From the UHGV virus genome UHGV-0140603: 39,059 bases of DNA. One strand, given 5' to 3'. Positions within the stretch are counted from its first letter, which is position 1; each line of letters begins with the position of its first letter. The position numbers and the translations under genes were made by a program. The DNA is from a virus. Below are positions 722 through 35,489 of this stretch, piece after piece. Below the pieces are notes generated by a model that was not told where the DNA came from, did no database searches, and saw only the letters and a list, made by a program, of their open reading frames with translations.

Positions 722-1240
722 GTGATGAAATTTAAAAAATGTCTTCTGCCTGTGGCAATGTTAGCGTCATTCACTCTGGCAGGATGCCAGTCAAATGCTG
801 ATGATCATGCCGCCGATGTTTATCAAACCGATCAACTGAATACCAAACAAGAAACTAAAACCGTTAATATTATTTCCATTCTTCCCGCAAAAGTTGCCGT
901 AGACAACGCCCAAAATAAACGGAACGCACAAGCCTTCGGCGCGCTTATTGGCGCTGTCGCTGGCGGTGTTATCGGCCACAACGTCGGGTCTGGCAGCAAT
1001 TCCGGAACGACGGCAGGTGCAGTTGGCGGCGGAGCTGTAGGCGCGGCAGCGGGTTCTATGGTGAATGATAAAACCTTAGTGGAAGGTGTTTCTTTAACAT
1101 ATAAGGAAGGCACCAAAGTGTATACCTCCACCCAGGTGGGTAAAGAGTGCCAGTTTACGACAGGTTTAGCCGTTGTTATTACCACGACGTATAACGAAAC
1201 GCGTATTCAGCCAAATACCAAATGTCCTGAAAAGAGCTAA
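722..1240 (+). CDS. Host lipoprotein with glycine-zipper region
   Basis: Signal peptide ending in lipobox LAGC (MMKFKKCLLPVAMLASFTLAGC); Gly/Ala-rich stretch GALIGAVAGGVIGHNVGSG typical of glycine-zipper outer-membrane lipoproteins. Confidence 0.6.
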   Translation: MMKFKKCLLPVAMLASFTLAGCQSNADDHAADVYQTDQLNTKQETKTVNIISILPAKVAVDNAQNKRNAQAFGALIGAVAGGVIGHNVGSGSNSGTTAGAVGGGAVGAAAGSMVNDKTLVEGVSLTYKEGTKVYTSTQVGKECQFTTGLAVVITTTYNETRIQPNTKCPEKS

Positions 1241-1255
1241 TAATCAGGAGGAGTC

Positions 1256-1795
1256 ATGAAGAAAGTTTTTCTTTGCGCCATCTTAGCCTCCTTAAGCTAT
1301 CCGGCTATCGCCTCATCATTGCAGGATCAACTCTCGGCTGTCGCAGAAGCGGAACAGCAAGGTAAAAATGAAGAGCAAAGGCAGCATGACGAATGGGTCG
1401 CGGAGCGCAACAGGGAAATCCAGCAAGAGAAGCAACGTCGCGCAAACGCCCAGGCCGCGGCTAATAAAAGAGCGGCAACGGCAGCAGCGAATAAGAAAGC
1501 TCGTCAGGATAAACTGGACGCCGAAGCCACTGCGGACAAAAAACGCGATCAAAGTTATGAAGATGAGCTACGCAGCTTAGAGATTCAGAAACAAAAACTG
1601 GCGCTGGCGAAAGAAGAAGCCCGCGTTAAGCGCGAAAACGAATTTATCGATCAGGAACTGAAGCACAAAGCTGCGCAAACCGATGTGGTGCAATCTGAAG
1701 CTGACGCAAACAGAAATATGACTGAAGGCGGTCGCGATCTGATGAAAAGCGTGGGTAAAGCAGAAGAGAATAAATCAGATAGCTGGTTTAATTAA
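1256..1795 (+). CDS. Secreted charged/coiled-coil protein, probably co-transcribed with the upstream lipoprotein
   Basis: Cleavable signal peptide (MKKVFLCAILASLSYPAIASS); SD aggagg 6-8 nt upstream; K/E/A/Q-rich body; 16-nt gap to upstream gene. Confidence 0.5.
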   Translation: MKKVFLCAILASLSYPAIASSLQDQLSAVAEAEQQGKNEEQRQHDEWVAERNREIQQEKQRRANAQAAANKRAATAAANKKARQDKLDAEATADKKRDQSYEDELRSLEIQKQKLALAKEEARVKRENEFIDQELKHKAAQTDVVQSEADANRNMTEGGRDLMKSVGKAEENKSDSWFN

Positions 1796-7960: not shown

Positions 7961-8064
7961 GTTAAATCTCCAGATAGTCGCAGCACCCGTTGCGCCGCAT
8001 ATCTGGTCATTCTATTACCTAAAAAACCACATATGGATAGACAACCCATAAATACGAACAGATA

Positions 8065-8079
8065 TTACCTTTCAGGTGA
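8065..8079. promoter_or_regulatory. Near-palindrome TTACC-TTTCA-GGTGA in the tailspike divergent promoter region
   Basis: One mismatch from the TTACC-N5-GGTAA consensus; followed by ttgcaa and tataaat promoter-like hexamers. Confidence 0.4.
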
Positions 8080-8155
8080 TTTGCAAAACGTGCTGGATAG
8101 CAAACAAATTATTTGTTACTGTATAAATATACAGTTATCGTATGGAGAAGATAAG

Positions 8156-8413
8156 ATGCAGCAGTATCACTATCCACTGGAAGACGGATTTACCGAAAGG
8201 ATTCACACGCCGGGAGGCGTCAGATCACTGGTGGAGGGATCGCACTTGATGAAATTACTCCGGGATCTCGATAAGGATGGATTTAATGTCGATGGCCCAC
8301 TTGCCGAACTGACTGCACTGATTAACTACGTCACCAGCTCACAGATGTCTATGCAGGATCTGCAAACACATCTCGACTATTGTGCCGAACAATTACGAAA
8401 ACAAACCACATAA
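8156..8413 (+). CDS. Hypothetical 85-aa protein, opposite-strand insert inside the late operon
   Basis: ATG at 8156 with SD ggagaag; promoter-like ttgcaa/tataaat upstream; terminator hairpin downstream; no recognisable family. Confidence 0.45.
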   Translation: MQQYHYPLEDGFTERIHTPGGVRSLVEGSHLMKLLRDLDKDGFNVDGPLAELTALINYVTSSQMSMQDLQTHLDYCAEQLRKQTT

Positions 8414-8436
8414 AGAAAAGGCCGCAAGAGCGGCCT
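8411..8436 (-). terminator. Rho-independent terminator ending the upstream late transcription unit
   Basis: Stem aggccgc/gcggcct with 4-nt loop; U-run on the minus-strand side. Confidence 0.55.
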
Positions 8437-8455
8437 GTGACATGTCACGCTCACG

Positions 8456-8596
8456 CTATGACAAGCCTATGTACCCTGCTACACCAGATAATATCAAAAC
8501 AACTGCAACAGCAAATTCACCATCGTCAATGATACATTTACGGTTCATAACGCCAAGTGCAACAAGCGCAAACACAACAAGAATAAAAGCAATCAT
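8456..8596 (-). CDS. Small (46 aa) two-helix membrane protein
   Basis: ATG 10 nt after the stop of the upstream gene, SD aaggatgag; MIAFILVVFALVALGVMNRKCIIDDGEFAVAVVLILSGVAGYIGLS; below the ORF-track size cutoff. Confidence 0.4.
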   Translation of the reverse strand: MIAFILVVFALVALGVMNRKCIIDDGEFAVAVVLILSGVAGYIGLS

Positions 8597-19483: not shown

Positions 19484-19812
19484 TACTCACCCCCATTGCC
19501 GTACAGGGTTTCAGCCGCTGATTTTTCTACATCCCCGGAAACAGGAGCGATCGCCATATCAGTGATCTGCAGATCGGCGCTGCGATTAACACCATCGTCA
19601 GTTTCTCTGGCAGACAGGCCTCGAATAACAGCCTTTGCAGTTATCATCACTTCTGTTCCGACGCCCTGAGGTTGCGCCTTCAGCTTATTCAATGTGTCGT
19701 TATTAAGAGTGATGCACAGCCCCCACGGGTATTCATCGCGAGTTCTGGTTTCTCCGCTCTCATCCTGGTAGCTGTCAGTGCCGGTTTTGAGGTTTACGAG
19801 TTCCATATACAC
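19483..19812 (-). CDS. Hypothetical structural protein
   Basis: 109 aa, within the structural operon. Confidence 0.35.
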   Translation of the reverse strand: MYMELVNLKTGTDSYQDESGETRTRDEYPWGLCITLNNDTLNKLKAQPQGVGTEVMITAKAVIRGLSARETDDGVNRSADLQITDMAIAPVSGDVEKSAAETLYGNGGE

Positions 19813-25011: not shown

Positions 25012-25088
25012 GTGGCATTAGCTCAGCTGGACAGAGCAACCGCCTTCTAAGCGGTTGGTCGCAGGTTCGAATCCTGCATGCCACGCCA
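25012..25088 (+). tRNA. tRNA-Arg (anticodon UCU)
   Basis: Acceptor stem gtggcat/atgccac, D-arm gctc-agctggaca-gagc, anticodon stem accgc/gcggt with loop cuUCUaa, T-arm gcagg-ttcgaat-cctgc, discriminator G, encoded CCA. Confidence 0.9.
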
Positions 25089-25131
25089 GAATCACGCCTA
25101 AGGACCGTGATGCCAGAAGTTCCAGGTGCTT

Positions 25132-25173
25132 GGCGGTGATGGTTTCCCTTGAAGGACTATCACCGCCCTTTTT
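25132..25173 (+). terminator. Rho-independent terminator after the tRNA
   Basis: 9-bp stem ggcggtgat/atcaccgcc followed by cttttt. Confidence 0.6.
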
Positions 25174-25251
25174 ACAGCAGGACGCCATTGCGATGACTTC
25201 ATGCTGTAAACCCGTTCAGCCACGGAAGGCAGAACTCATTGCTTCCAGTTC

Positions 25252-25274
25252 GCCCACTTCAGTGGGCTTTTTTC
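25252..25274 (+). terminator. Second rho-independent terminator
   Basis: Stem gcccact/agtgggc followed by tttttt. Confidence 0.6.
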
Positions 25275-25287
25275 TAGTGACTACTGA

Positions 25288-25302
25288 TTACCTTATGGGT
25301 AA
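25288..25302. promoter_or_regulatory. Perfect palindrome TTACC-TTATG-GGTAA overlapping a -10-like taatat, 32 nt upstream of the 310-aa ORF
   Basis: Exact inverted repeat; -10-like hexamer 25300-25305. Confidence 0.5.
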
Positions 25303-25334
25303 TATGCTGCAAACAAATAACACAAGACCGTGAC

Positions 25335-26267
25335 ATGCTTGACTTCATCCGTGACATTTACGCTTCTTTCCGCCAGACATCTCTTGAAAGAGTGAAGAGT
25401 CCATTTCTTGGACCTTTCGTATTTTCGTGGTTGGGGTTTAACTGGCAGATGCTGGCCGTTATCTTTTTTAGCACAAAAAGTATCGAAGAAAGACTTAGTC
25501 TAATAAATAAAAGTTTCGATGTCGGTGATTATATATTTGCCCCTATATGTACTACTGCTTTGATAGTAATAATCCTCCCACGATTTAATAAATTTATCAC
25601 TTGGGTACAGGATAAACCTAACTCTGACACTGTAGAAATGAGTCTGGCATCTAAAATAAAAATCGCAGAATTACAACAGTCCTTAGCTGAAAATGAAGCA
25701 AGAAAAAAACTTGCCGATAAAAAAGAAGAAAGATTTATTGAGGATGGAATATATTCTCTAAAAGAAGAGTTCAAAAAAACAAAAAATGACCTAGAAAAAA
25801 GAAATGACGATGCAAAAATATTGCTAGAAGAAATACGACGTTTAGAAGGCCAACTAGCAAAGGCAGAGGGTCAATTAAATGTAGAACAAGAGTCAAAATC
25901 TCAGATACAAAAAGAGTTGATTATCGAAAGAGATAACAACCGCACATTAGGCGAACAAATAATAAAATCAACATCAGAATCAAATAAATTCAAAGCAGAA
26001 TTATCTTTATCTAAAGAGTCATATGAAAACACATTCAAAGCATACAATGAATTAAAGAAACGGAATGAAATCACTGAAAACTCAATTAGGCACAATCACA
26101 CTAGATACCCATCATTAATAAAACCAGTAAGTGTTAACGGAGCATATACACTAGAATTTAATAAAGGTGTAGAACTATATTTTGACGAAATCAACAAAAC
26201 ATTAACAACCCAAAAAAAGAGAGACTATAAAACCAATAAGGTTAATGCTCGCAATGATGAATTATAG
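25335..26267 (+). CDS. AT-rich hypothetical protein: hydrophobic N-terminal segments plus long coiled-coil; candidate accessory/defence gene
   Basis: 310 aa; opposite strand to flanking terminase and portal; low GC; several AGA codons; no family recognised. Confidence 0.6.
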   Translation: MLDFIRDIYASFRQTSLERVKSPFLGPFVFSWLGFNWQMLAVIFFSTKSIEERLSLINKSFDVGDYIFAPICTTALIVIILPRFNKFITWVQDKPNSDTVEMSLASKIKIAELQQSLAENEARKKLADKKEERFIEDGIYSLKEEFKKTKNDLEKRNDDAKILLEEIRRLEGQLAKAEGQLNVEQESKSQIQKELIIERDNNRTLGEQIIKSTSESNKFKAELSLSKESYENTFKAYNELKKRNEITENSIRHNHTRYPSLIKPVSVNGAYTLEFNKGVELYFDEINKTLTTQKKRDYKTNKVNARNDEL

Positions 26268-26272
26268 TCACT

Positions 26273-27748
26273 TTAAGCAAACGGGTCGTAATCCATGATT
26301 GCCCTGCCCTGCTGGTTCTGCAGCCCAGGAATTCGCAGGCGCTTCGACACAGGGAACGCAAACGTCAGCAGTAGCGCATCGCCTTTACCAGGAGAACGCC
26401 CAAGCCGCTCCTTGATATCTTCCTTCGGTTCGATAACGATTTTACCGTCCACTCGAACTTTGTACTCTGCCGCAGACAGGTCGTCCGCTGTTTCCTGGTC
26501 ATCCAGCATGCCGCCCAGCCTCAGCCATGTCTTGCATGAGTTGAACATCTCCCCACGCTTGTTGAGCATCTGCGGGTCAGTAGACGCGCCACCGAACGGA
26601 ACAAGTTGCCATGTACGACCCCAGCCATCACCGATTGACTTCAGACCAGTTCCGTAACCGAAGTCGATGAACACTGCGTCAGCCTGGTACTGGTCTTCAA
26701 AGTCAGCGATACGCTTCGCCATAATCAGATCGTCAGTGGTCTTGTTGCCAGTCCACAGCACCTTACTGTGCAGCCCCTGCCGCAGGTATATCACAGCGTC
26801 ATCAACGCCGGAGTATGCCGGGTCAACGCCGATTATCACCGGAGCATGTGCAACCTGCGCAGCGGTTACCACCCGTTTCATTGCCTCGTCAGTAAGGCCG
26901 GTAGGGATAAACTGCAATTCAGATGCATCCGGGAATATGCCGCGCACACGGATTTTAACGAAGTCGCTGTCTTCCCCGTAGTCATCAACCCATTTCTGCA
27001 ACTGCTGTTTGTTAGTGCCTTCCACCGTCCGGCTGTCAATCTGCGCAGTTTTCCAGCGGTGTTTATATTTGCGGAAACATTCGCGAAAACGCCCGGTGTT
27101 ACGTGTAGGGTTTCCGAACGCCACCCAGATAATCTCAGTGTCTTCGTCCGTAAGCGCACCCTCAGCAACTTCCCACACCAGATCCGCAATGTTCGACGCT
27201 TCATCGAATACCACGATGATGCGTTTGCGCTCGTTGTGTAGTCCGGCGAATGCCTCAGTGTTGTGCTCAGACCAGGGTATTGCGTCAGCCCGCCACCGCT
27301 TGTCGTGCCCAGGGTCATTGCTGTACATCGCGGTAGCGGTACAGGTAAACCAGTCTTTCGTGATAGCAAGGTTCGACCACTTGATAATTTCCGGCCAGGT
27401 CTTCGTTCGTAGCTGGTTGTCGGTGTTGGCGGTCACCACGACCTTACAATCCTCGCAAGTGGACATGCCCCAGTTGATCAGCATTGAGATGAATGCGGAT
27501 TTACCAATACCGTGACCAGAAGCGCGTGCCAACATAAGCGGCTGATAGCGCGTCTCTGGATTCTGCAGGTGATCACGTATCTCTCGGAACGCATCAGCCT
27601 GCCACTGACGTGGGCCGGTAGCATGTGCCAGTTCAGTCCCCTCTTCCCCCCACGGGAACGCATAGAGGGCATAGCCAAGCGGATCGTGAGTGAACCCTGC
27701 AATATCCTCGATTAACTGCTCTTCAGGAGATAACGCTGTATCTGTCAC
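26273..27748 (-). CDS. Terminase large subunit
   Basis: 491 aa; Walker A-like ASGHGIGKS; start overlaps the small-subunit stop. Confidence 0.8.
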   Translation of the reverse strand: MTDTALSPEEQLIEDIAGFTHDPLGYALYAFPWGEEGTELAHATGPRQWQADAFREIRDHLQNPETRYQPLMLARASGHGIGKSAFISMLINWGMSTCEDCKVVVTANTDNQLRTKTWPEIIKWSNLAITKDWFTCTATAMYSNDPGHDKRWRADAIPWSEHNTEAFAGLHNERKRIIVVFDEASNIADLVWEVAEGALTDEDTEIIWVAFGNPTRNTGRFRECFRKYKHRWKTAQIDSRTVEGTNKQQLQKWVDDYGEDSDFVKIRVRGIFPDASELQFIPTGLTDEAMKRVVTAAQVAHAPVIIGVDPAYSGVDDAVIYLRQGLHSKVLWTGNKTTDDLIMAKRIADFEDQYQADAVFIDFGYGTGLKSIGDGWGRTWQLVPFGGASTDPQMLNKRGEMFNSCKTWLRLGGMLDDQETADDLSAAEYKVRVDGKIVIEPKEDIKERLGRSPGKGDALLLTFAFPVSKRLRIPGLQNQQGRAIMDYDPFA

Positions 27749-28338
27749 TGATTACCATCCTGGCGTTCTTTGAGTCGCTTCCTGGCCGCTGCTATGCGAT
27801 CTGCAATTGTCACATTCACATTAACATCCAGGCGTTCTTTAAACGCGTTAACATCAACATGCTTACCAATCAGCTCAAGGTTCTTCACCTTGTCAGGCCA
27901 TTTAATTTTTTTGAGGATTGTCTCTATCGAATCCTCGTTCATGTTCATGATGGTCGATGACAGATCAAAGCCGCTAAGCGTAGTGCGCCATATTTTCGGC
28001 CACTCGCGGATTGGCTTAAGGCTCCCATCGTCGTTGAGGATGTCGATCACGTCCATCTGGTCGATCTCCACCAGGCGCATAAGAACGTAATCGGCACTGA
28101 CGCGCATTCGTTTGTTGCGTTCCTCCATCAGCTCGGCAATCCGTTTCTGAATGCGTTCATCGCGCATCATAACACTGGCTTTAACTGCCGCTGTATTTGG
28201 AGAGAATCCTGCGTTAATCGCTGCCTGAGTCTGGTTTTCAGGCGTTTTGATGTACGACTGACAATAAGCCTCCTGCATTGCTGTTAGTGGCTTAAATTGC
28301 GTTGATTTGCGTTTATAGGTTTTAGGTTCAGCTGGCAT
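27745..28338 (-). CDS. Terminase small subunit
   Basis: ATG at 28338 with SD aaggtgg; track ORF extends upstream to 28419; immediately precedes large terminase. Confidence 0.65.
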   Translation of the reverse strand: MPAEPKTYKRKSTQFKPLTAMQEAYCQSYIKTPENQTQAAINAGFSPNTAAVKASVMMRDERIQKRIAELMEERNKRMRVSADYVLMRLVEIDQMDVIDILNDDGSLKPIREWPKIWRTTLSGFDLSSTIMNMNEDSIETILKKIKWPDKVKNLELIGKHVDVNAFKERLDVNVNVTIADRIAAARKRLKERQDGNQ

Positions 28339-28358
28339 AATAACCACCTTGGTAATAG

Positions 28359-28373
28359 TTACCGTTTTGGTAA
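28359..28373. promoter_or_regulatory. Perfect palindrome TTACC-GTTTT-GGTAA upstream of the terminase small subunit
   Basis: Exact inverted repeat between an upstream terminator and the terminase RBS. Confidence 0.5.
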
Positions 28374-28383
28374 TAGTATCATG

Positions 28384-28410
28384 CAAAATAAAGCCGCCAT
28401 AGTTGGCGGC
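28384..28410 (-). terminator. Rho-independent terminator between the early/accessory region and the late operon
   Basis: Stem gccgcca/tggcggc, minus-strand U-run uuuauuuu. Confidence 0.6.
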
Positions 28411-28459
28411 AGTATTCAAAACCCATCAAATTCATCATGCATAATCCATTCGTGACATG

Positions 28460-28801
28460 TCACAATATTAATTTCGTTTCATGCCAGCCTTTAGTCACCC
28501 AGCATTGCGAGTCACCATTACACGGGCATGAATTTACAGGAACTCTCTCGCCGCACTTACCGCAACGTTTTCTGCTGATCGATTTTATACGCCCGCGCAC
28601 GCGTGCATCATCCTGGCGGATCAGTAACGCTATATACTCACCAAATTCGTAAGGCGCACGCCCGGGGCGACGCGTGGCACAGTTACGCTCCAGCATTTCA
28701 ATTTCCTGAGCATCAAGCACAATTTCCAGCTTACGCACACCAGATGCAGCTTGTCTGGCTCTCTGAGCGGCTTTGCGCTCTGCTGCTGATTTAGCCATCA
28801 A
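28460..28801 (-). CDS. Basic protein with C-terminal Cys cluster, candidate late-gene regulator
   Basis: 113 aa; Arg/Lys-rich N-terminus; CGKCGERVPVNSCPC; last gene before the terminator and late operon. Confidence 0.35.
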   Translation of the reverse strand: MMAKSAAERKAAQRARQAASGVRKLEIVLDAQEIEMLERNCATRRPGRAPYEFGEYIALLIRQDDARVRGRIKSISRKRCGKCGERVPVNSCPCNGDSQCWVTKGWHETKLIL

Positions 28802-32307: not shown

Positions 32308-32322
32308 TTACCAATTAGGTAA
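32308..32322. promoter_or_regulatory. Perfect palindrome TTACC-AATTA-GGTAA, 4 nt upstream of the DUF1064 start codon
   Basis: Exact inverted repeat. Confidence 0.5.
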
Positions 32323-32369
32323 TTAAAAACCACATAAGACATGAAATCAATAGATGTTAGAACATTTTG

Positions 32370-32384
32370 TTACCCACCAGGTAA
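32370..32384. promoter_or_regulatory. Perfect palindrome TTACC-CACCA-GGTAA
   Basis: Exact inverted repeat, 48 bp from the previous site. Confidence 0.5.
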
Positions 32385-34652: not shown

Positions 34653-34715
34653 TCACCCATAAGGTAACAAAAATCAAGGATAGTTACCCATGAGGTGCAT
34701 TTACCTGTTGGGTAA
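34653..34715. promoter_or_regulatory. Right operator region: three TTACC-N5-GGTAA-type sites between the cro-like and repressor genes
   Basis: Sites 34653-34667 (tcacc..ggtaa), 34684-34698 (ttacc..ggtgc), 34701-34715 (perfect). Confidence 0.65.
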
Positions 34716-34770: not shown

Positions 34771-35355
34771 ATGAAAAGTATCCAGGACGTCCGCAGGCAA
34801 AATCTCAACGACTTGATCGACCGTGAATTCAATGGTGTTCAGACGCGGATGGCTGAAAAACTTGGAACTCAGGCAAATCTGGTAAACCGCTGGGCTCTTG
34901 GCAAGAAGGTTATCGGCGACCAGGTTGCGCGAAAAATTGAAGCTGCCGCCAATAAACCACGTAACTGGCTTGATATCGATCGCTCGCTTTCTCAGGAGGG
35001 TTTTCAGCCTGTCGGACCAAGCGACATTGGTCAGCTGGCGGCTCACAACCTGGAACGCTGGATGAGCGAAAGCCGCGACCTTTCAACACAGGGAAAACTT
35101 CACCGCGCATCCGGCGTCGCCCAAGTGACAATCAGCCGCCTGTTAAACAATGAGGTCAGCGTTTCCATTTCCACCCTGGAGAATGTTGCATCTGCATTCG
35201 GGCGTCACGGATATGAACTACTGATTCACCCGCACGACCCTGCAACTATCAACTATGACCGCTCGCGCTACGCATTGTTACCTGAAACCGAGAAAGCAAA
35301 GATCGAAAGTTACATTGAATTTGTCATCAACCAGAACGAAAAAAACAAACAATAA
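34771..35355 (+). CDS. Repressor-like protein with two HTH regions and no peptidase S24 domain
   Basis: N-terminal XRE-type HTH, second HTH-like segment ~120-150; no Ala-Gly/Ser-Lys autocleavage motifs. Confidence 0.6.
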   Translation: MKSIQDVRRQNLNDLIDREFNGVQTRMAEKLGTQANLVNRWALGKKVIGDQVARKIEAAANKPRNWLDIDRSLSQEGFQPVGPSDIGQLAAHNLERWMSESRDLSTQGKLHRASGVAQVTISRLLNNEVSVSISTLENVASAFGRHGYELLIHPHDPATINYDRSRYALLPETEKAKIESYIEFVINQNEKNKQ

Positions 35356-35412: not shown

Positions 35413-35489
35413 TTACCTTGCAGGTAATTTTTTCAACTCATATCTATTGACACCAAACCAAATACGCATAATTATTACCTCAACGGTAA
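35413..35489 (+). promoter_or_regulatory. Left operator/promoter: two perfect palindromes flanking a TTGACA -35
   Basis: Sites 35413-35427 and 35475-35489; ttgaca at 35447-35452; A/T-rich -10-like region ~35467-35475. Confidence 0.6.

What the first reader, a model, noticed from the sequence alone, without database searches (positions are those of the whole stretch)
28339..28801. Cys-cluster basic protein, terminator and palindrome immediately upstream of the late operon
The last early-region gene encodes 113 aa with an Arg/Lys-rich N-terminus and a CGKC...CPC cluster. It is followed within ~50 nt by a strong terminator, then a perfect palindrome, then the terminase RBS. No Q-like antiterminator or recognisable late activator is present elsewhere, so this is the best candidate for the late-gene switch, acting either by antitermination or as an activator at the palindrome.
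Basis: inference. Interest (0 to 1): 0.5.

Follow-up and report, generated by a model that had tools for sequence, protein, structure and literature searches.

The report
Phage DNA-binding protein with boundary palindromes
The small cysteine-rich protein is a conserved phage DNA-binding protein whose likely target is a 12-base palindrome lying on its own stop codon, while the palindrome beside the terminase gene is a prophage-repressor operator on a separate late promoter, so this protein is probably not the late-gene switch.

Summary
The features exist, on the minus strand. A 112-aa gene (28460-28798) is followed by a strong intrinsic terminator (28393-28410), an interrupted palindrome TTACCAAAACGGTAA (28359-28373) and the terS ribosome-binding site.

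The interpretation needs revising. That palindrome is one of 11 TTACC-N5-GGTAA sites (0.56 expected). The sites cluster in the immunity region and match sites annotated as repressor-binding in epsilon15. It abuts a conserved extended -10 (TGaTACTAT), so the late operon probably has its own promoter under direct Rep control.

The protein is modelled as a ribbon-helix-helix domain plus a Cys zinc knuckle (PHROG 536; epsilon15 gp49, N15 gp46). Its probable site is a different, perfect palindrome, GTGACATGTCAC. This overlaps its stop codon in 66 of 75 distinct homologues, including ones only about 34% identical. It recurs at 8437-8448, next to the terminator where the structural operon meets the convergent SOS-controlled antirepressor gene. 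It equals the E. coli matS consensus minus one base.

Homologues coexist with Q in N15 and with an Ogr-position regulator in a P2-like phage. The site has no fixed spacing to the late promoter. The most likely role is a boundary or roadblock regulator, with modest confidence. Antitermination is not excluded.

The parts
28460..28798 (-). Regulator gene (112 aa from ATG; TTG one codon upstream at 28801). N-terminal basic helix, ribbon-helix-helix domain, long helix, Cys zinc knuckle and C-terminal helix.
28452..28463 (.). PAL1: perfect 12-bp palindrome GTGACATGTCAC overlapping the regulator's TGA stop codon (28462-28460). Probable cognate binding site.
   Evidence: The site starts -3 to +5 nt from the end of the stop codon in 66 of 75 distinct homologues, including N15 gene 46, ZF40 gp22 and the P0211 subfamily.
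28416..28442 (-). Eight-codon remnant (ATGCATGATGAATTTGATGGGTTTTGA) of a 70-aa cassette gene that is intact between PAL1 and the terminator in about a third of close relatives.
   Evidence: Comparison with L041.
28384..28410 (-). Intrinsic terminator ending the early unit: hairpin 28410-28393 plus T-run TTTATTTTG.
   Evidence: 7 pairs, 6 G-C. Conserved as hairpin plus T-run with different stems in eps15, L010, L011, L022 and L024.
28373..28381 (-). Predicted extended -10 promoter element TGaTACTAT of the terS late unit (P_terS). Its last T is the first base of operator O1.
   Evidence: TGnTAnnAT is conserved in 12 terS-linked loci, including L008, which lacks the upstream terminator. The same '-10 abuts operator' geometry occurs at 32308 and 35475. 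No transcript-start data exist.
28359..28373 (.). Operator O1, TTACCAAAACGGTAA.
   Evidence: 11 sites against 0.56 expected. The epsilon15 record annotates the same motif as repressor sites, including one upstream of terS.
28341..28355 (.). Operator O2 (TTACCAAGGTGGTTA, 1 mismatch), overlapping the terS Shine-Dalgarno AAGGTGG (28350-28344).
27745..28338 (-). terS, first gene of the late packaging unit. terL follows at 26273-27748.
   Evidence: Pfam Terminase_2 1e-29. 100% identical to phiV10 and TL-2011b terS.
8437..8448 (.). PAL3: second perfect GTGACATGTCAC. It lies 7 nt after the stop (8458-8456) of the last small gene of the structural operon (8456-8596, minus strand).
   Evidence: Equivalent copies occur in phiV10 (19493) and epsilon15 (19517, overlapping the gp18 stop).
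8411..8435 (-). Terminator of the structural operon: hairpin GGCCGCtcttGCGGCC (8435-8420) plus TTTTCTTTA, 1 nt from PAL3. Read from the opposite (ant) direction the hairpin is followed by PAL3 instead of a U-run.
8156..8413 (+). Antirepressor gene ant, convergent with the late operon and ending 23 nt before PAL3. A LexA box (CTGT-N8-ACAG from 8123) and operator-like site 8065-8079 lie upstream.
   Evidence: PDB 5d50_E 'Anti-repressor protein', E 9e-47. 85% identical to epsilon15 gp19. LexA box.
34771..35355 (+). Prophage repressor (Rep), the presumed binder of the TTACC-N5-GGTAA operators. Operators lie at 34653, 34701, 35413, 35475, 32308, 32370, 24675, 25288, 8065, 28341 and 28359.
   Evidence: PDB 5d50_A Repressor of phage SPC32H, E 4e-42. 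Operator list.

Best explanation
Shown or strongly supported:
- The window is a phiV10/epsilon15-type (Uetakevirus) prophage.
- The 112-aa protein is modelled as a ribbon-helix-helix (RHH) domain preceded by a basic helix and followed by a long helix, a Cys zinc knuckle and a short helix. It belongs to a conserved, uncharacterised phage family (epsilon15 gp49, N15 gp46, PHROG 536).
- Its gene travels with a 12-bp palindrome, YGTGAC-NN-GTCACR, placed on or within 5 nt of its own stop codon. Further copies are scattered in the same genomes. In this window the second copy is at 8437-8448.

Inferred:
- A dimer binds these palindromes as double-stranded DNA.
- In this phage group the palindromes sit where transcription units end and convergent units meet. 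These places are the end of the early unit, after terL next to variable reverse-oriented cargo genes (in relatives), and between the structural operon and the SOS-controlled antirepressor gene.
- I therefore think the protein acts as a boundary or roadblock-type (negative) regulator that limits transcription running across unit ends. It may also limit completion of its own mRNA.
- The late operon itself is most likely switched on by a different route. LexA cleavage leads to Ant, Ant inactivates Rep, and this de-represses a dedicated extended -10 promoter (28373-28381). That promoter overlaps two Rep operators (28341-28373) and is insulated from early transcription by the terminator at 28393-28410.
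For: Fold and family:
- PHROG 536. 154 clusters at 50% identity, all about 105-135 aa.

Gene-site linkage:
- The palindrome lies at the stop codon in 66 of 75 distinct homologues. This includes 49 of 49 N15-like loci, which hold 105 sites against 0.84 expected, ZF40 and a 35%-identity subfamily.
- The site persists where it lies just beyond the stop codon, so it is a DNA element and not a coding constraint.
- Half-sites are conserved while the centre varies, as expected for a symmetric dimer site.

Extra copies:
- Window 8437; epsilon15 has 3 and phiV10 has 3, one split by the record ends; N15 has 3; Vibrio K303 has 3; Yersinia phage L032 has a perfect copy plus a 1-mismatch copy 40 nt upstream.

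Boundary position:
- PAL3 is 1-2 nt from the terminator hairpin and faces the convergent ant gene.
- PAL2 is 4 nt from the terL hairpin, and at least 6 unrelated cargo genes end 4-5 nt from its other side.

Late promoter and operators:
- 11 operators against 0.56 expected, including the immunity region.
- The epsilon15 record annotates this motif as repressor sites.
- Rep homologue. Rep binds palindromic sites as a tetramer (PMC9638917).
- TGnTAnnAT abutting the operator is conserved in 12 loci. The same geometry occurs at two other promoters.
Against: - No binding, transcript or genetic data exist for any family member. No paper in the library contains the 12-mer.
- A roadblock at PAL1 looks redundant with the strong terminator 49 nt downstream.
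- An RNA polymerase stopped by a protein on PAL2 or PAL3 would stall before finishing the adjacent hairpin. The tight hairpin-palindrome spacing is therefore not explained mechanistically.
- In Vibrio phage K303 two sites lie 19 nt upstream of start codons, including terS. A negative lytic-cycle regulator there would seem counterproductive.
- PAL2 is absent from this window and from about 40% of close relatives, so at least that site is dispensable.
- The operator-to-Rep assignment rests on site distribution and on a database annotation, not on a footprint I could read.
Confidence: 0.38

Rival explanations
1. The protein is the late switch acting by antitermination. Bound at (or loaded from) the palindrome, it lets RNA polymerase coming from the early unit read through the terminator at 28393-28410 into terS. 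The other palindromes would do the same at the terminators that end the later units.
For: - The gene is last in the early unit and sits directly upstream of the late genes.
- The layout of regulator gene, abutting cis site, terminator and late genes resembles Q-qut-tR' (own knowledge of lambda).
- In the late-operon direction PAL1 and PAL3 precede an intrinsic terminator.
- No Q, N or Ogr homologue is present in the window.
- The N-terminus is arginine-rich.
Against: - A conserved promoter with Rep operators lies downstream of the terminator, so read-through is not needed.
- There is no conserved promoter or pause element at a fixed distance from PAL1 on which a Q-like factor could load.
- Cassettes of 186 nt to more than 300 nt are inserted between PAL1 and the terminator in many relatives.
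- PAL2 lies downstream of the terL hairpin, not upstream.
- Family members coexist with Q in N15 and with an Ogr-position regulator in a P2-like phage.
- The fold is RHH, not Q-like.
Confidence: 0.15
2. The protein is an upstream activator of the weak, -35-less terS promoter (and of the other late promoters), working from GTGACATGTCAC rather than from the TTACC...GGTAA palindrome.
For: - P_terS has only an extended -10 and no recognisable -35.
- In five independent arrangements the palindrome centre lies at -71.5, -73.5, -91.5, -92.5 and -102.5 from the inferred start. Four of the five are on one helical face, like class I activator positions.
- Each late unit has a palindrome somewhere upstream.
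Against: - In 23 of 80 close relatives the distance is about -277, and elsewhere it is -322 to -434.
- PAL2 and PAL3 are separated from the next promoter by whole reverse-oriented genes (380-800 bp).
- In K303 the site is 19 nt from the terS ATG, too close for an upstream activator.
- The phasing rests on five points and an assumed start site.
Confidence: 0.1
3. The protein and its palindromes form a phage counterpart of the host MatP/matS system. A site-specific RHH protein would organise or bridge phage DNA, or interfere with the host condensin MukBEF or with MatP functions, rather than regulate transcription.
For: - GTGACATGTCAC equals the E. coli matS consensus GTGACATTGTCAC minus one central base (PMC8669397).
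- Both proteins have a basic helix before the RHH and a long helix after it.
- There are 2-3 dispersed sites per roughly 40 kb.
- The family is found in Enterobacterales, Vibrio and Aeromonas phages. By my own knowledge this is the clade that has MatP and MukBEF.
Against: - There is no detectable sequence homology (hhalign probability 1.2%; no MatP hit in profile-to-PDB or Pfam searches).
- The four-helix bundle and coiled coil of MatP are absent, and a zinc knuckle is present instead.
- The one-base shorter spacer should make the two systems orthogonal.
Confidence: 0.1
4. The palindrome is bound by some other factor (host or phage), or is only a recombination or junction scar that hitch-hikes with the gene. 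The 112-aa protein would then have an unrelated target.
For: - Binding was not tested.
- PAL2 and PAL1 coincide exactly with mosaic junctions where the flanking sequence changes.
Against: - The linkage holds across about 34-100% protein identity in unrelated phage types (podo-, sipho- and myoviruses, and linear plasmid-prophages).
- Additional copies occur only at levels far above chance in genomes that carry the gene.
- The symmetric site suits a dimeric RHH protein.
Confidence: 0.07

Closest known systems
Ribbon-helix-helix (Arc/MetJ/CopG) DNA-binding regulators, e.g. P22 Arc and Mnt, AmrZ, TacA antitoxins
   Different: No Pfam RHH model reaches threshold. It carries a C-terminal Cys zinc knuckle. 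Its site lies at the 3' end of its own gene and at unit ends, not at its own promoter.
E. coli MatP / matS (Ter macrodomain organiser)
   Same: RHH preceded by a basic helix and followed by a long helix. The site GTGAC-AT-GTCAC compares with matS GTGAC-ATT-GTCAC. Both have a few dispersed sites.
   Different: 12 bp against 13 bp. No four-helix bundle or coiled coil. No sequence homology. It is a phage early gene.
Lambda Q with its qut site, PR' promoter and tR' terminator
   Same: The regulator gene is last before the late genes, a cis site abuts the gene end, and a terminator lies upstream of the late genes.
   Different: No Q-family match and a different fold. No conserved promoter at the site. 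There are extra sites at unit ends. A separate repressor-controlled promoter follows the terminator. N15 carries both this family and a Q gene.
TraR/DksA C4 zinc-finger proteins (F TraR, lambda Orf73, YbiI)
   Same: Weak profile similarity of residues 48-109 to TraR and YbiI (E 0.02-0.03). Shared C-x2-C-G-x2-[IL]-P motif.
SPC32H Rep/Ant antirepression circuit (LexA-controlled Ant inactivates tetrameric Rep)
   Same: The window encodes close homologues of both Rep (E 4e-42) and Ant (E 9e-47), with a LexA box before ant. This circuit, not the 112-aa protein, is what the palindrome next to terS appears to belong to.
   Different: This concerns the operator and promoter part of the finding only. 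The 112-aa protein has no described role in that circuit.
P2 Ogr / P4 Delta zinc-finger late activators
   Same: Small phage proteins with a Cys cluster, proposed to control late genes.
   Different: Cys spacing here is C-x2-C-x8-C-x-C-x5-C, against C-x2-C-x22-C-x4-C in Ogr (own knowledge). Ogr has no RHH. A P2-like Yersinia phage has a separate small regulator at the Ogr position in addition to a member of this family.

Membership tests
PHROG 536 / epsilon15 gp49 - N15 gp46 family | Full-length profile match | tested here: met
   E 2.2e-54, residues 1-111 of 112 against profile 2-114 of 115. tblastn hits N15 gene 46 and epsilon15 gp49.
Ribbon-helix-helix superfamily | Strand-helix-helix fold | tested here: met
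Ribbon-helix-helix superfamily | Match to a curated RHH sequence model | tested here: inconclusive
   Only sub-threshold hits: NCBIfam LexA-regulated protein E 0.05; RHH_5, RepB-RCR_reg and RHH_1 in 1-2 of 57 members.
Ribbon-helix-helix superfamily | Dimer that inserts a two-stranded sheet into the major groove of a symmetric site | not testable with these tools
   Only monomer prediction is available. The symmetric conserved site is indirect support.
Lambda Q-type antiterminators | Q-family sequence or fold | tested here: not met
   No Pfam or NCBIfam Q match. The fold is RHH.
Lambda Q-type antiterminators | Binding element embedded in a conserved constitutive promoter with a promoter-proximal pause | tested here: not met
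   No conserved -10 or -35 at a fixed distance from the palindrome in 18 diverse loci.
TraR/DksA | C4 zinc finger CxxC-x17-CxxC (Pfam zf-dskA_traR) | tested here: not met
   The pattern is CxxC-x8-CxC-x5-C. No Pfam hit in 57 members. Profile-to-PDB hits are only E 0.02-0.03.
TraR/DksA | DxxDxA motif at the helix tip and R48/R49 equivalents | tested here: not met
   The aligned segment reads PYEFGEY / PVNSC. Features taken from PMC9239242.
MatP | Sequence homology to MatP (four-helix bundle + RHH + coiled coil) | tested here: not met
   hhalign probability 1.2%. The model has no four-helix bundle.
MatP | Binds the 13-bp GTGACRNYGTCAC | not testable with these tools
   The associated site is the 12-bp GTGAC-NN-GTCAC. 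Binding was not measured.
Ogr/Delta late activators | Cys spacing C-x2-C-x22-C-x4-C and Ogr_Delta profile | tested here: not met
   Different spacing. No Pfam hit.
Rep operators of SPC32H/epsilon15-type phages (for the palindrome at 28359-28373) | Same motif in the immunity region flanking the repressor gene | tested here: met
   Sites at 34653, 34701, 35413 and 35475 flank the Rep gene (34771-35355). There are 11 sites against 0.56 expected. The epsilon15 record annotates ATTACC-N5-GGTAAT as repressor sites.
Rep operators of SPC32H/epsilon15-type phages (for the palindrome at 28359-28373) | Demonstrated binding by Rep | not testable with these tools
   The SPC32H papers were not held in the library. 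Only a secondary statement that Rep tetramers bind palindromic sites was available.

The most novel reading that the evidence does not exclude
A widespread family of phage RHH-zinc proteins and matS-like 12-bp palindromes forms a dedicated boundary system. The protein would mark the ends of transcription units and cargo-gene slots and act there as a conditional insulator or terminator helper. Alternatively, like MatP, it could act as an organiser of phage DNA or an antagonist of host condensin. Its own site on its stop codon would give an unusual form of autoregulation from the 3' end of the gene.
Probability: 0.15. Interest if true: 0.75.

Novelty: new variant of a known kind. Interest (0 to 1): 0.5.

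Why it matters
- How epsilon15/phiV10-type phages turn on late genes has not been worked out. The sequence evidence here points to direct repressor control of several late promoters (LexA to Ant to Rep), rather than a dedicated late activator or antiterminator. Simple reporters could test this.
- The 112-aa protein belongs to a conserved family with no assigned function, spread over very different temperate phages of enterobacteria, vibrios and aeromonads. Its cis site is precisely defined and easy to mutate.
- Three features give concrete hypotheses about insulation of phage operons from cargo genes and about mimicry of a host chromosome-organising system:
  - the placement of the site on the gene's own stop codon;
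  - its placement at junctions with variable cargo genes and with the antirepressor gene;
  - its near-identity to matS.

Tried and rejected
- Promoter at PAL1. GTGACA resembles a -35, and the scan tool gave GTGACA-18-CATGAT at 9 of 12 matches. No -10 is conserved at any fixed offset in 18 diverse loci.
- Helical phasing of PAL1 relative to P_terS. It looked suggestive in 5 arrangements but is undone by relatives with 186-nt and larger insertions.
- The repeated ATCATGCA(A/T)AAT elements flanking the terminator. One copy belongs to the remnant of a 70-aa cassette gene. They are not a regulatory repeat.
- pac/cos idea. The phiV10 and epsilon15 records break in this intergenic region. The breaks coincide with the stop codon and the terminator T-run, and family members in N15 and P2-like phages lie far from terminase. 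I found no data on the physical genome ends.
- Sequence homology to MatP: hhalign not significant.
- Rfam gave only a sub-threshold rseX match (27 bits against 50, E 0.38). PADLOC gave no hit. BFVD returned only a fragment of the same protein. The afdb50 library was unavailable.
- Literature. There is nothing on the 12-mer and nothing on Uetakevirus late transcription. The ZX5 paper tests Rep, Ant and Int only. The SPC32H papers are not held.
- An alignment-based scan of viral contigs failed because no stretch was conserved enough.
Full report
**What is at the coordinates**

The genes of the finding lie on the minus strand. The ORF at 28460-28801 encodes 113 aa from TTG, or 112 aa from the ATG at 28798. 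It has a basic N-terminus and a C-terminal Cys cluster (C79, C82, C91, C93, C99).

Its TGA stop (28462-28460) lies inside a perfect 12-bp palindrome, GTGACATGTCAC (28463-28452). Forty-nine nt further on is a strong intrinsic terminator: hairpin 28410-28393 (7 pairs, 6 G-C) followed by TTTATTTTG. The intergenic RNA folds better than all 200 shuffles (z -3.4).

After the terminator come, in order:
- TTACCAAAACGGTAA (28373-28359);
- a 1-mismatch second copy (28355-28341) that covers the Shine-Dalgarno AAGGTGG;
- the terS ATG (28338).

terS matches Pfam Terminase_2 at 1e-29, and terL follows it. The continuous perfect palindrome at the stop codon went unmentioned.

**Genomic setting**

The window is a phiV10/epsilon15-type (Uetakevirus) prophage of E. 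coli. Megablast gives 95-97% identity to PAS61, O157 typing phages 9 and 10, TL-2011b and phiV10. The 112-aa gene corresponds to phiV10 gp55 and epsilon15 gp49, the last gene before terS.

Pfam scans of the remaining early ORFs found replication proteins (lambda P-like, DnaT-like), RecT, a PD-(D/E)XK protein, a methyltransferase, a PerC-like protein and an AlpA-like protein. No Q, N or Ogr relative was found.

**The palindrome next to terS is a repressor operator on a separate late promoter**

TTACC-N5-GGTAA (at most 1 mismatch) occurs 11 times in the window against 0.56 expected, and no shuffle reached 11. The sites lie:
- on both sides of the repressor gene (34653, 34701, 35413, 35475);
- before the second early unit (32308, 32370);
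- before terS (28341, 28359);
- before the portal unit (24675);
- at 25288;
- between the tail-fibre and antirepressor genes (8065).

The epsilon15 GenBank record annotates the same motif, ATTACC-N5-GGTAAT, as repressor-binding sites, including one at 12-27 just upstream of terS. The window's 194-aa repressor is a homologue of phage SPC32H Rep (PDB 5d50_A, E 4e-42). Rep is reported to bind palindromic sites as a tetramer (PMC9638917).

Immediately upstream of operator O1 is TGaTACTAT, an extended -10 whose last T is the first base of the operator. TGnTAnnAT in this exact register is conserved in 12 terS-linked loci. One of these (L008) has lost the upstream terminator.

The same geometry is seen at two promoters with good -35 boxes: TTGATT-17-TTTAAT at 32308 and TTGACA-17-AATTAT at 35475. 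I infer a Rep-controlled promoter for terS between the terminator and the gene, with a start near 28366. No transcript data were available, so this step is an inference.

The window also encodes an Ant homologue at 8156-8413 (PDB 5d50_E, E 9e-47; 85% identical to epsilon15 gp19) behind a LexA box. The known SPC32H logic (LexA, then Ant, then Rep) plausibly de-represses early and late units directly.

**The protein**

It matches PHROG 536, 'transcriptional regulator', over its full length (E 2e-54). It matches no Pfam family, either alone or across 57 members. It has no PDB sequence relative.

It has 726 homologues at E ≤ 0.001, nearly all 112 aa and named 'hypothetical protein'. They form 154 clusters at 50% identity.

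An AlphaFold2 model built on a 57-sequence alignment is confident (pLDDT 92.7, pTM 0.70). It shows a helix at 5-19, an extended segment at 20-29, helices at 30-42 and 52-75, a knuckle at 76-99 and a helix at 100-108.

A profile search of the PDB gave weak hits to TraR and YbiI (E 0.02-0.03). The TraR hallmarks (DxxDxA, R48/R49, a second CxxC; PMC9239242) are absent, and fold searches do not find TraR. I do not file the protein under that family.

**The protein's probable site**

In 21 genome loci from different Enterobacterales genera and in distant phages, GTGAC-NN-GTCAC sits on the stop codon of the homologous gene, or 1-5 nt after it. What lies downstream does not matter: it may be terS, LexA-controlled umuD-like cassettes or other genes. 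Examples beyond the close relatives:
- N15 gene 46 (34% identical protein; site GTGACTGGTCAC);
- Pectobacterium phage ZF40;
- a 35%-identity subfamily reached with P0211.

All 49 N15-like loci have it.

Where the stop codon is TAA or TAG, the palindrome is simply shifted beyond it. It is therefore a DNA element and not a coding constraint. The half-sites and the flanking Y...R are conserved while the central two bases vary (AT, TG, AG, GG, CG). That is the pattern expected for a symmetric dimer on duplex DNA.

The same genomes hold further copies far above chance:
- two perfect copies in this window (28452 and 8437; about 0.002 expected for a second copy);
- three in epsilon15, and three in phiV10 counting the copy split by the record ends;
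- three in N15, and 105 in 49 N15-like loci against 0.84 expected;
- three in Vibrio phage K303;
- in a P2-like Yersinia phage, a perfect copy plus a 1-mismatch copy 40 nt upstream.

Binding itself was not tested.

**Where the sites lie in this phage group**

PAL1 ends the early unit.

PAL3 (8437-8448) lies 7 nt after the last gene of the structural operon and 1 nt before that operon's terminator hairpin. On the other side, the convergent ant gene ends 23 nt away. Read in the ant direction, the hairpin is followed by the palindrome instead of a U-run. The arrangement is the same in epsilon15 and phiV10.

PAL2 occurs in relatives 4 nt after the terL hairpin. Its left side is constant. On its right side at least six unrelated reverse-oriented cargo genes end 4-5 nt away. 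PAL2 is missing from this window, where a convergent ORF ends 5 nt from terL, and from about 40% of 80 close relatives.

Between PAL1 and the terminator about a third of close relatives carry a 70-aa gene. The window retains only an 8-codon remnant of it (28442-28416).

In N15 the extra sites lie inside repA and next to the antirepressor (immA) locus.

An activator working at the RBS-proximal palindrome is contradicted by the operator assignment.

An activator working from PAL1 is unlikely. The palindrome centre lies at -71.5 to -102.5 from the inferred start in five arrangements. It lies at about -277 in 23 of 80 close relatives and at -322 to -434 where cassettes are inserted. No promoter element is conserved at a fixed offset.

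Antitermination cannot be excluded, but several points count against it:
- it is not needed if P_terS exists;
- the fold is not Q-like;
- PAL2 lies on the wrong side of its hairpin;
- the family coexists with Q in N15 and with a small regulator at the Ogr position in the P2-like phage.

**Most likely mechanism (inference, confidence about 0.4)**

The protein is an early-expressed, site-specific DNA-binding protein that sits at unit ends and convergent junctions. There it limits transcription across them. Examples would be SOS-driven ant transcription running antisense into the 16-kb structural operon, terS-terL transcripts running into cargo genes, and early transcripts running past its own gene.

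The constant placement of PAL1 within a few bases of the stop codon would also let the bound protein stop polymerase before its own ORF is completed. That would amount to autoregulation from the 3' end of the gene.

Weak points of this model:
- PAL1 looks redundant with the terminator;
- the K303 sites lie 19 nt before start codons;
- a polymerase blocked by the protein would stall before completing the adjacent hairpin.

**A notable resemblance**

GTGACATGTCAC is the E. coli matS consensus GTGACATTGTCAC minus one central base (PMC8669397). MatP is an RHH protein and is among the best structural matches, with the longest alignment.

Sequence homology is not detectable (hhalign probability 1.2%), and the flanking domains differ. 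I treat a MatP-like role in organising DNA or antagonising condensin as a low-probability but interesting alternative.

**Novelty**

No paper in the searchable library contains the 12-mer or addresses late regulation in this phage group. The fold class is well known.

The following appear undescribed: the family itself, its zinc-knuckle fusion, the site on its own stop codon, and the association of the site with unit and cargo boundaries. I rate the finding a new variant of a known kind, with moderate interest. The specific claim that this protein is the late-gene switch is not supported by what could be tested.

Noticed in passing
window 8156-8413 (+), LexA box about 8121-8139, operator-like site 8065-8079: The 126-aa ORF call 8033-8413 is an over-call. 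The real gene is an 85-aa homologue of the SPC32H antirepressor Ant (5d50_E, E 9e-47). It sits behind a consensus LexA box, divergent from the tail-fibre gene and convergent with the structural operon.
   Followed up: yes
window 32308-32384: A pair of operator sites with a good promoter (TTGATT-17-TTTAAT) lies inside the rightward early region, after the lambda-P-like gene. The early region therefore appears split into two Rep-controlled units, and the 112-aa gene belongs to the second.
   Followed up: partly
L033-L112, just after terL (e.g. L036:12601): The palindrome after terL marks the exact edge of a hypervariable slot. At least six unrelated reverse-oriented genes end 4-5 nt from it in close relatives. 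It looks like a cargo (moron) hotspot.
   Followed up: partly
window 25055-26267 (+): Two plus-strand ORFs (92 and 310 aa, no Pfam or PADLOC match) are convergent with terL, with only 5 nt between the stop codons. They replace the terminator and palindrome found there in phiV10 and epsilon15.
   Followed up: partly
L007:3380, L008:3379, L014:3491, L016:3502: In four different genera a LexA box lies within about 45-170 nt downstream of the regulator's palindrome. In L008 it is followed by a umuD-like gene (FPSPAADY motif). This is an SOS-controlled cassette inserted between the regulator gene and terS.
   Followed up: partly
L028 (N15, NC_001901) 33482, 35933, 41127, 45564: Four copies of the 18-bp palindrome GTGCGACCNNGGTCGCAC are dispersed over the N15 genome. 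They may be its dispersed partition (SopB) centromere sites. They are unrelated to the GTGAC-NN-GTCAC sites.
   Followed up: no
L030 (Vibrio phage K303) 21342 and 35942: Two palindrome copies lie exactly 19 nt before the start codons of gene 0032 and terS. Both have the motif TTATACGCG 40-50 nt upstream. A 13-bp variant at 19491 overlaps the stop of gene 0027 and is followed by a hairpin.
   Followed up: no
L032 (Yersinia phage vB_YenM_42.18) 7953-12561: In this P2-like phage the family member lies in the variable region between gene A and the portal gene. It sits next to a 2.6-kb gene annotated 'Smc', with two palindrome copies about 130-170 nt upstream of a membrane-protein gene (gp21).
   Followed up: partly
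window 722-1795 (+): Beyond the lysis genes lie a TraT-like / glycine-zipper lipoprotein gene (722-1240) and a DUF5384 gene (1256-1795). No integrase gene was seen among the window ORFs examined; by the phiV10 map it would lie beyond the right end.
   Followed up: no
window 28386-28471 (-): Sub-threshold Rfam match to the sRNA rseX (27 bits against gathering 50, E 0.38) across the palindrome-terminator interval. Judged a chance match.
   Followed up: yes
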